NCBI GenBank assembly: GCA_020137815.1 | Contig: CM035355.1 | Span: 2,418,001-2,482,000 of the forward strand | DNA: 64,000 nucleotides | Direction of reading: 5' to 3' | Origin: Hormiphora californensis | Lineage: Eukaryota; Animalia; Ctenophora | Part shown: piece by piece, positions 55,400 to 55,532 of the stretch | How the letters are laid out: every line of letters starts with the position of its first letter | Numbering within the stretch: the stretch's first letter is position 1 | Translations under genes and position numbers: made by a program | The notes under the pieces: model-generated | Told to the model about the DNA's origin: nothing | The model's input: the letters and a program-made list of their open reading frames with translations, nothing else | The model's database searches: none

Positions 55400-55532
55400 G
55401 GGGGAGTTGGTCCACCTGCCACCACCTCCTATCGGTTTCCCCCGGGCAACAGGGTCACACGGAGTACCTTTTCCCCATCCCCTTTTCCCCTTGATCGATT
55501 TTCAGGTCCGTGTGGCCGTGGCTAAGCGTGGC
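55400..55532 (+). ncRNA. HDV-like self-cleaving ribozyme at the retrotransposon 5' end
   Basis: P1 gggggag/ttccccc; P2 gccac/gtggc; P3 acc/ggt; L3 tcctatc; P1.1 cc/gg; GCAACA junction; P4 ggtcacacgga/tccgtgtggcc; J4/2 tggCtaag with catalytic C at 55522. Confidence 0.85.

What the first reader, a model, noticed from the sequence alone, without database searches (positions are those of the whole stretch)
55400..55532. HDV-like ribozyme whose cleavage site falls exactly at the (GA)n / retrotransposon boundary
Seen: every element of the nested double pseudoknot is present in order. P1 55400-55406/55437-55443; P2 55418-55422/55528-55532; P3 55424-55426/55434-55436 with a 7-nt L3; P1.1; GCAACA as in genomic HDV; an 11-bp P4; UGGCUAAG as in antigenomic HDV. 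One C-C mismatch or bulge sits at the P2/P3 junction. Known: HDV-like ribozymes process the 5' ends of R2, R4 and RTE elements. Inference: self-cleavage 5' of G55400 frees the element RNA from read-through transcripts and defines the true 5' end, 1.6 kb upstream of the ORF.
Basis: partly seen in the sequence, partly recalled or inferred. Interest (0 to 1): 0.8.

Follow-up and report, generated by a model that had tools for sequence, protein, structure and literature searches.

The report
Self-cutting RNA heads GA-repeat jumping gene
The first 133 bases of a jumping gene that sits right behind a GA repeat can pair into the hepatitis-delta self-cutting RNA fold and likely trim the element's RNA free at the repeat boundary, an arrangement already shown for the related silkworm element Dong, so it is a new example of a known kind.

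Summary
Observation confirmed. All helices pair as stated, and this is the only descriptor hit in the window (4 hits in 600 simulated windows). An independent copy (L033) has the same (GA)n junction and differs at 0 of 90 core positions against 7 of 43 in the L4 loop. The element is an R4/Dong-type retrotransposon, likely of a ctenophore. This copy stops before its endonuclease, where a CR1/L2-like element begins. 'Exactly' needs a one-base margin: two P1 registers are equally stable, and copies carry six or seven Gs. The architecture is known: Dong's ribozyme cuts off upstream TAA repeats in vitro (PMC3774820). Cleavage was not tested here and no covariation was seen. Two things look new. The target is likely (GA)n. 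And L033 is a ~1 kb non-coding derivative flanked by (GA)n on both sides, with a fold-back in which 37 of 52 adenosines are G on the sense strand, against 0 of 71 in the 5' module; this is likely ADAR hyperediting fixed by retrotransposition. New member of a known kind; interest 0.33.

The parts
55234..55399 (+). (GA)n microsatellite, likely the insertion target; its last G (55399) may belong to the element
   Evidence: (GA)n on both sides of L033; two P1 registers
55400..55532 (+). HDV-like ribozyme fold: P1 55400-06/55437-43, J1/2 55407-17, P2 55418-22/55528-32, P3 55424-26/55434-36, L3 55427-33, P1.1 55428-29/55444-45, P4 55453-63/55507-17, L4 55464-506, predicted catalytic C55522
   Evidence: 0 of 90 core differences against L033
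55533..55713 (+). rest of the conserved 5' module shared with the short derivative; role unknown
   Evidence: 7 differences in 181 nt against L033; covered by many contigs
55714..55891 (+). 5' UTR stretch that occurs in L033 once in sense (in part) and once inverted, both arms A-to-G changed
55803..56694 (+). minisatellite (24-nt units, 78-nt higher-order period) inside the 5' UTR
56982..59909 (+). single ORF, 975 aa: two Myb-like N-terminal repeats, reverse transcriptase; ends in a stop about 240 aa short of full-length relatives, before the CCHC knuckle and endonuclease
59910..64000 (+). unrelated CR1/L2-like non-LTR element (ORF1 60012-61940, AP-endonuclease/RT ORF from 61769) that begins where the first element breaks off; likely a nested insertion
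   Evidence: clade name recalled from the domain layout

Best explanation
Bases 55400-55532 can pair into a complete HDV-like double pseudoknot at the first base of an R4/Dong-type retrotransposon, and this fold likely cleaves itself out of read-through transcripts at the (GA)n boundary to make the element RNA's 5' end. Host transcription entering through the microsatellite would give a co-transcript. C55522 with Mg2+ would cut 5' of G55400 or G55399. The freed RNA would be reverse-transcribed into a new (GA)n site by the protein of an intact copy. Shown: the pairings, the junction in independent copies, conservation of the core against the loop, the element type, and truncation of this copy. 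Inferred: cleavage, (GA)n targeting, reliance on read-through transcription, and a ctenophore host.
For: All helices pair; rare by chance (4 of 600 simulations). P3, five of seven L3 bases and J4/2 match the antigenomic ribozyme in a hepatitis delta virus record that the pattern scan returned (L001). L033: same junction, 0 of 90 core against 7 of 43 L4 differences, Fisher p 0.0003. Common variants in organism A contigs miss P2, P3, L3, P1.1, the 3' strand of P1 and the 11-bp P4. Contigs cover the GA flank of the 5' junction in both organism A runs (table 4). ORF relatives at 86-89% identity carry CCHC and the restriction-like endonuclease motif. A Dong-like element between (TAA)n tracts (L012) has an HDV-like fold starting on the first base after the repeat. 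Dong RNA released 7 TAA repeats in a co-transcription assay (PMC3774820, supplementary figure legend in the main text). Nine other natural sequences share the extra base at the top of P2, and in 8 of the 9 the P2-top pyrimidine can pair with the last J4/2 purine.
Against: No cleavage data. No compensatory change was seen; the copies are too alike and no 5' end of a 50-60% relative could be fetched. Nested folding prefers other pairings, more so with upstream GA attached. A common variant class changes U55519, breaking one pair at the base of P4, and A55524 (17-41% of summed contig depth). One low-depth contig in organism B has an insertion next to P1.1. My relaxed scan found no fold in the 3.5 kb or less upstream of the match in 5 of 6 distant relatives; they may be truncated or use another head. 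Rfam gave no ribozyme match. Only two full-length junction sequences were read directly.
Confidence: 0.85

Rival explanations
1. The fold is a ribozyme by descent but cleaves slowly or not at all; the 5' module is conserved mainly as an internal promoter or a protein-binding and translation signal, as Pr77 is both promoter and ribozyme in L1Tc.
For: 55533-55713 is also well conserved (7 differences in 181 nt). Competing folds are more stable in nested models. Dispersed microsatellites are not reliably transcribed (inference). Pr77 dual role: PMC3383444, abstract start in a search listing. Some well-folded R2 ribozymes did not cleave (PMC3774820 passages).
Against: The core is invariant while L4 varies. 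All catalytic-core positions are intact. The predicted cut falls on the boundary. A promoter role does not exclude cleavage.
Confidence: 0.11
2. The (GA)n is not a target but a by-product, such as a tail or an expansion beside insertions, and the boundary match is incidental.
For: The genome is rich in GA/TC tracts. Only two full junctions were read. The 3' end of the autonomous element was not seen.
Against: L033 has (GA)n on both sides. Contigs of two samples cover GA flanks at both ends. Dong-type relatives sit in (TAA)n in the same way.
Confidence: 0.1
3. The pairings are a chance product of G- and C-rich sequence.
For: A loose descriptor gives 0.13 hits per simulated window; MFE z 0.76; no Rfam match.
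Against: Strict descriptor 4 of 600; located on the element's first base; core conserved; catalytic-core sequence matches HDV.
Confidence: 0.02

Closest known systems
Dong (Bombyx mori) and R4 (Ascaris) 5' HDV-like ribozymes, R4/Dong clade (PMC3774820, passages and section 16; PMC7998251, passages)
   Same: Single ORF with Myb-like N-terminus, RT and, in relatives, restriction-like endonuclease; microsatellite target; ribozyme starting at the element's first base.
   Different: Target is likely (GA)n, not (TAA)n or rDNA; two Myb-like repeats; 1.6 kb 5' UTR with a minisatellite; likely ctenophore host; activity untested.
R2 SIDEs of Drosophila (PMC3414825, abstract) and NARTc of trypanosomes (PMC3383444, search listing)
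   Same: Short non-autonomous elements that keep the 5' ribozyme of their parent, as L033 does.
   Different: L033 holds an inverted duplication of the 5' UTR with near-saturating A-to-G change; whether its 3' end is the parent's 3' end was not shown.
Hepatitis delta virus antigenomic ribozyme (record L001)
   Same: Same P3, five of seven L3 bases, GG of P1.1 and the same J4/2 run around the catalytic C.
   Different: G-C instead of G-U at the first P1 pair, one extra base at the top of P2, longer J1/2 and a 43-nt L4; not viral.
Kibi (TC)n-specific elements (PMC3812793, passage)
   Same: Use the same dinucleotide microsatellite, TC/GA.
   Different: Kibi is listed among AP-endonuclease elements; this family encodes a restriction-like endonuclease.

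Membership tests
HDV-like ribozymes | Nested double pseudoknot P1, P1.1, P2, P3, P4 in order | tested here: met
HDV-like ribozymes | G at position 1 paired at the base of a 6-7 bp P1 | tested here: met
   G-C pair, 7 bp, in either of two registers
HDV-like ribozymes | L3 with conserved U and C; catalytic C and constrained A in J4/2 | tested here: met
   side by side with L001; C55522 and A55525 not among the variants listed; HDV numbering recalled
HDV-like ribozymes | Structure under selection (covariation) | tested here: inconclusive
   core conserved against loop but no compensatory pairs; one common variant breaks a P4-base pair
HDV-like ribozymes | Match to a curated Rfam ribozyme model | tested here: not met
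   not a defining feature, since these models do not score pseudoknots
HDV-like ribozymes | Mg2+-dependent self-cleavage 5' of G1, lost on C-to-U change | not testable with these tools
   needs a bench assay
R4/Dong clade non-LTR retrotransposons | Single ORF with RT | tested here: met
   PF00078 E 5e-27
R4/Dong clade non-LTR retrotransposons | C-terminal CCHC and restriction-like endonuclease | tested here: inconclusive
   absent from this truncated copy; endonuclease motif in 3 of 4 relatives at 86-89% identity, the fourth is cut short; CX2CX8HX4C read by eye, my regex had the wrong spacing
R4/Dong clade non-LTR retrotransposons | Divergent Myb-like N-terminus without zinc fingers | tested here: inconclusive
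   two repeats match the N-terminal motif of Dong-like L012 (pairwise E 1e-7 and 5e-5); no Pfam Myb hit; not folded; feature from PMC7998251
R4/Dong clade non-LTR retrotransposons | Insertion in a microsatellite or rDNA | tested here: met
R4/Dong clade non-LTR retrotransposons | Phylogenetic placement with named R4/Dong references | tested here: inconclusive
   no named R4 or Dong protein was available; P0002 is far closer to TAA-flanked L012 (E 1e-117 among candidates) than to solved R2 proteins (E 2e-30; E-values not on one scale); tree base unresolved

The most novel reading that the evidence does not exclude
A (GA)n-targeting R4/Dong family of ctenophores mobilises a ribozyme-headed, non-coding fold-back element whose duplex was rewritten by ADAR hyperediting and fixed in the genome by retrotransposition, then amplified. 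The ribozyme also cuts in two slipped registers, which sets the six-or-seven-G 5' junction and stops the G run from growing.
Probability: 0.45. Interest if true: 0.6.

Novelty: new member of a known kind. Interest (0 to 1): 0.33.

Why it matters
It extends the ribozyme-at-the-5'-end strategy of R4/Dong elements to what is likely a ctenophore family and to a (GA)n target. The sources read list TAA or rDNA for this clade. Short site-specific elements with a restriction-like endonuclease are of interest as insertion tools. The derivative L033 matters more if the editing reading holds: it would be a genomic record of A-to-I editing made heritable through an RNA intermediate, in an early-branching animal whose repeats are known ADAR targets (PMC9989829, passages).

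Tried and rejected
No whole genome is held, so copies could not be counted or empty sites compared. Rfam found no ribozyme family in the window region or L033; the snoRNA and lncRNA matches are low-complexity hits below gathering score. MFE folding does not recover the fold. No second copy of the element lies in the window, and no trace of the missing C-terminus. Pattern scans: viral contigs 11 stretches, none of this family, one being HDV itself; a 3'-end pattern 0; genome contigs 0; metagenomes 68 stretches, 1 of this family and none with an RT match to P0002. Distant relatives at 26-37% identity in genome records, probably animal contamination, gave no fold in 5 loci scanned; 2 of the 7 loci had no upstream DNA and were left out. 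A tRNA-like look at the head of L081/L082 was not confirmed by ARAGORN or Rfam. The poly(A) RNA run has a contig beginning at the G run, but a DNA run's contigs end there too, so this is no evidence of cleavage or expression. Summed contig depths were not used as copy numbers. The ADAR 5'-neighbour test was inconclusive: G precedes 3 of 16 changed and 4 of 10 unchanged As in one arm, and the other arm is nearly saturated. Ruminski 2011 (PMC3308841) is not held; only its citation was seen. The supplements of PMC3774820 were not opened; the Dong gel is known from its legend. Literature searches showed no GA-specific R4/Dong element, no ctenophore R4 ribozyme and no genomically fixed ADAR-edited retroposon in the listings; most hits were not opened, and Repbase and subscription journals are not covered. 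Earlier scan notes: none at this place or sequence.

Full report
Observation. Listed pair by pair: P1 has five G-C, one A-U and one G-U; P2 five Watson-Crick pairs; P3 three; P1.1 two C-G; P4 eleven pairs, with two more at its base. The (GA)n tract ends at 55399 and the ATG is at 56982, 1,582 nt on. A descriptor search finds only this site on either strand of the window. A loose descriptor hits simulated 64-kb windows 0.13 times each (60 simulations); requiring an 8-bp P4 gives 4 hits in 600. I wrote both after seeing the site, so they bound chance only roughly. A pattern scan happened to return a hepatitis delta virus record (L001): its antigenomic ribozyme has the same P3, five of seven L3 bases and the same J4/2 run. 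Against: Rfam gives no ribozyme match, and nested folding prefers other pairings (z 0.76), more so with upstream GA. Neither method scores pseudoknots.

One correction. The G run is six long (55399-55404), and P1 forms from G55399 as well as from G55400 (-11.4 and -11.6 kcal/mol). Contigs show a seventh G in 136,376 of 334,231 summed depth in run X3 (21 contigs) and 6,355 of 19,244 in X5 (4 contigs). The cut therefore lies at the boundary to within one base. Two cleavage registers would explain the two junction lengths (inference); untemplated addition would too.

The element. The ORF 56982-59909 is a reverse transcriptase with relatives at 86-89% identity. Three of the four closest run to about 1,215 aa and end in a CCHC knuckle and a restriction-like endonuclease motif. 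The window's ORF stops about 240 aa short, no trace of the rest is in the window, and an unrelated two-ORF AP-endonuclease/RT element follows at once. This copy therefore lacks its endonuclease within the window and is likely dead; its intact ribozyme reflects the family. Named relatives are from Pleurobrachia, Bolinopsis and Mnemiopsis. P0004 is nearly identical to a Pleurobrachia model over its aligned RT, and the window protein falls in a 12-row clade (100/100) that includes the representatives of the Bolinopsis and Mnemiopsis clusters (23-row tree). A ctenophore host is likely. The N-terminus has two repeats that match the N-terminal motif of a TAA-flanked Dong-like element, in line with the Myb-like domain described for R4/Dong (PMC7998251, passages). 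No named R4 or Dong protein was on hand, so clade membership rests on layout and similarity.

Other copies. No genome is held. A metagenome scan gave 68 stretches, of which one, L033, belongs to this family. It has (GA)n directly before the same G run and differs from the window at 0 of 90 ribozyme positions outside L4 and 7 of 43 inside it (p 0.0003). In four laid runs, the variants listed within 55412-55532 are three substitutions and one insertion in L4, U55519C and A55524G (about 41% and 17% of summed depth in X3 and X5), and one change plus an insertion at 55446 in a single contig of depth 2. Positions 55400-55411 were not covered in that call. U55519C breaks a pair at the base of P4, which counts against; A55524G spares the catalytic C and the A three bases on (HDV numbering recalled). 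No compensatory pair was seen. Among the scan hits, nine other distinct sequences with a P2 have the same extra base at the top of P2. In eight of them the P2-top pyrimidine can pair with the last J4/2 purine (six C-G, two near-identical U-A). This favours C55423-G55526 with C55527 bulged, and shows the geometry recurs in nature. These hits were chosen by my own pattern and are untested.

Mechanism. Shown: fold, junction, conservation, element type. Inferred: read-through RNA entering through (GA)n is cut 5' of the G run, and the freed RNA is copied into another (GA)n by an intact element's protein. Seven upstream AUGs lie in the 5' UTR, so translation of an uncapped RNA would need internal initiation; that was not tested. 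Confidence 0.85. Rivals: slow or vestigial ribozyme with a promoter role (0.11), (GA)n incidental rather than targeted (0.10, not exclusive of cleavage), chance (0.02).

Known precedent. Eickbush, Burke and Eickbush 2013 (PMC3774820; passages and section 16) place cleavage at the 5' end of R4, Dong, baggins and L1Tc, and report a 21-nt product of seven TAA repeats for Dong. L012, a Dong-like element between (TAA)n tracts in a virus-collection record, shows an HDV-like fold starting on the first base after the repeat. My relaxed scan found no fold upstream of the five other distant relatives it examined. The headline is thus a new member of a known kind. The sources read list TAA and rDNA as R4/Dong targets and TC for Kibi elements. 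I found no GA-specific R4/Dong in the searches run, which do not cover Repbase.

Beyond the finding. L033 is a complete short element of about 985 nt with (GA)n on both sides and no match to the family's protein, like the R2 SIDEs that keep the ribozyme (PMC3414825, abstract). Its middle is a sense copy and an inverted copy of the 5' UTR stretch from 55714. With the window as reference, 37 of 52 sense-strand As in the two arms are G, against 9 of 44 C-to-T (p 7e-7) and 0 of 71 A-to-G in the 5' module; G-to-A is 2 of 44 and T-to-C 3 of 52. The result is a long duplex full of G-U pairs. Contigs that follow the changed 5' arm occur in both organism A runs (X3 record 12, X5 record 22), and the 5' and 3' modules are covered by many contigs, so the changed form is not unique to one assembly. 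ADAR hyperediting fixed by reverse transcription fits best; ctenophores have ADAR1 and ADAR2 and edit repeats (PMC9989829, passages). Selection for wobble-compatible transitions is the rival, the neighbour test was inconclusive, and the count rests on one full copy. Two searches listed no paper on such fixed editing; most hits were not opened. Two earlier scan notes describe ribozyme-headed retroposons in another genome; they were not tested and are not support.

Verdict. Real feature, interpretation supported with a one-base margin, activity untested. New member of a known kind, interest 0.33. The edited fold-back derivative deserves its own follow-up.

Noticed in passing
L033:163-1145: Short non-coding derivative of the element with (GA)n on both sides, the same ribozyme, and a fold-back (about 475-760) with 37 of 52 sense-strand As changed to G; likely fixed ADAR hyperediting. 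Ends in a strong terminal hairpin (about 1095-1146).
   Followed up: partly
window 59909-60012: The R4-like ORF ends abruptly and a CR1/L2-like element begins; likely nested insertion. Its ORF1 (60012-61940) has Cys/His-rich motifs but no Pfam hit.
   Followed up: partly
window 55803-56694: About 890-nt minisatellite with 24-nt units and a 78-nt higher-order period inside the 5' UTR; related units occur inverted in L033.
   Followed up: partly
L012:2451-2530: HDV-like fold starting on the first base after (TAA)n in a Dong-like element with a broken ORF, in a virus-collection record (recalled as possibly a wasp polydnavirus; not checked).
   Followed up: partly
L018, L021, L027-L029, L034, L039, L040, L044, L058, L074, L075 and others: Many unrelated HDV-like candidates in metagenome contigs share this core; several sit just upstream of ORF starts, L075 has two, and L018 follows a tRNA-like 3' end.
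   Followed up: no
L081:3536-3620; L082:551-640: A distant R4-like family next to (TAA)n begins with a head that looks tRNA-derived by eye rather than a ribozyme; ARAGORN and Rfam did not confirm it.
   Followed up: partly
L080-L086: R4-like retrotransposons inside records labelled as bacterial or archaeal genomes; probably animal contamination.
   Followed up: no
P0005: A Pleurobrachia gene model fuses a Src-like kinase with a piece of this retrotransposon family; probably an intronic insertion read into the model.
   Followed up: no
window 44071-46701 and 53385-54440 (-): A 2.6 kb satellite of 22-nt units, and a gag-like ORF with a CCHC motif and no Pfam hit just upstream of the GA tract.
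   Followed up: no
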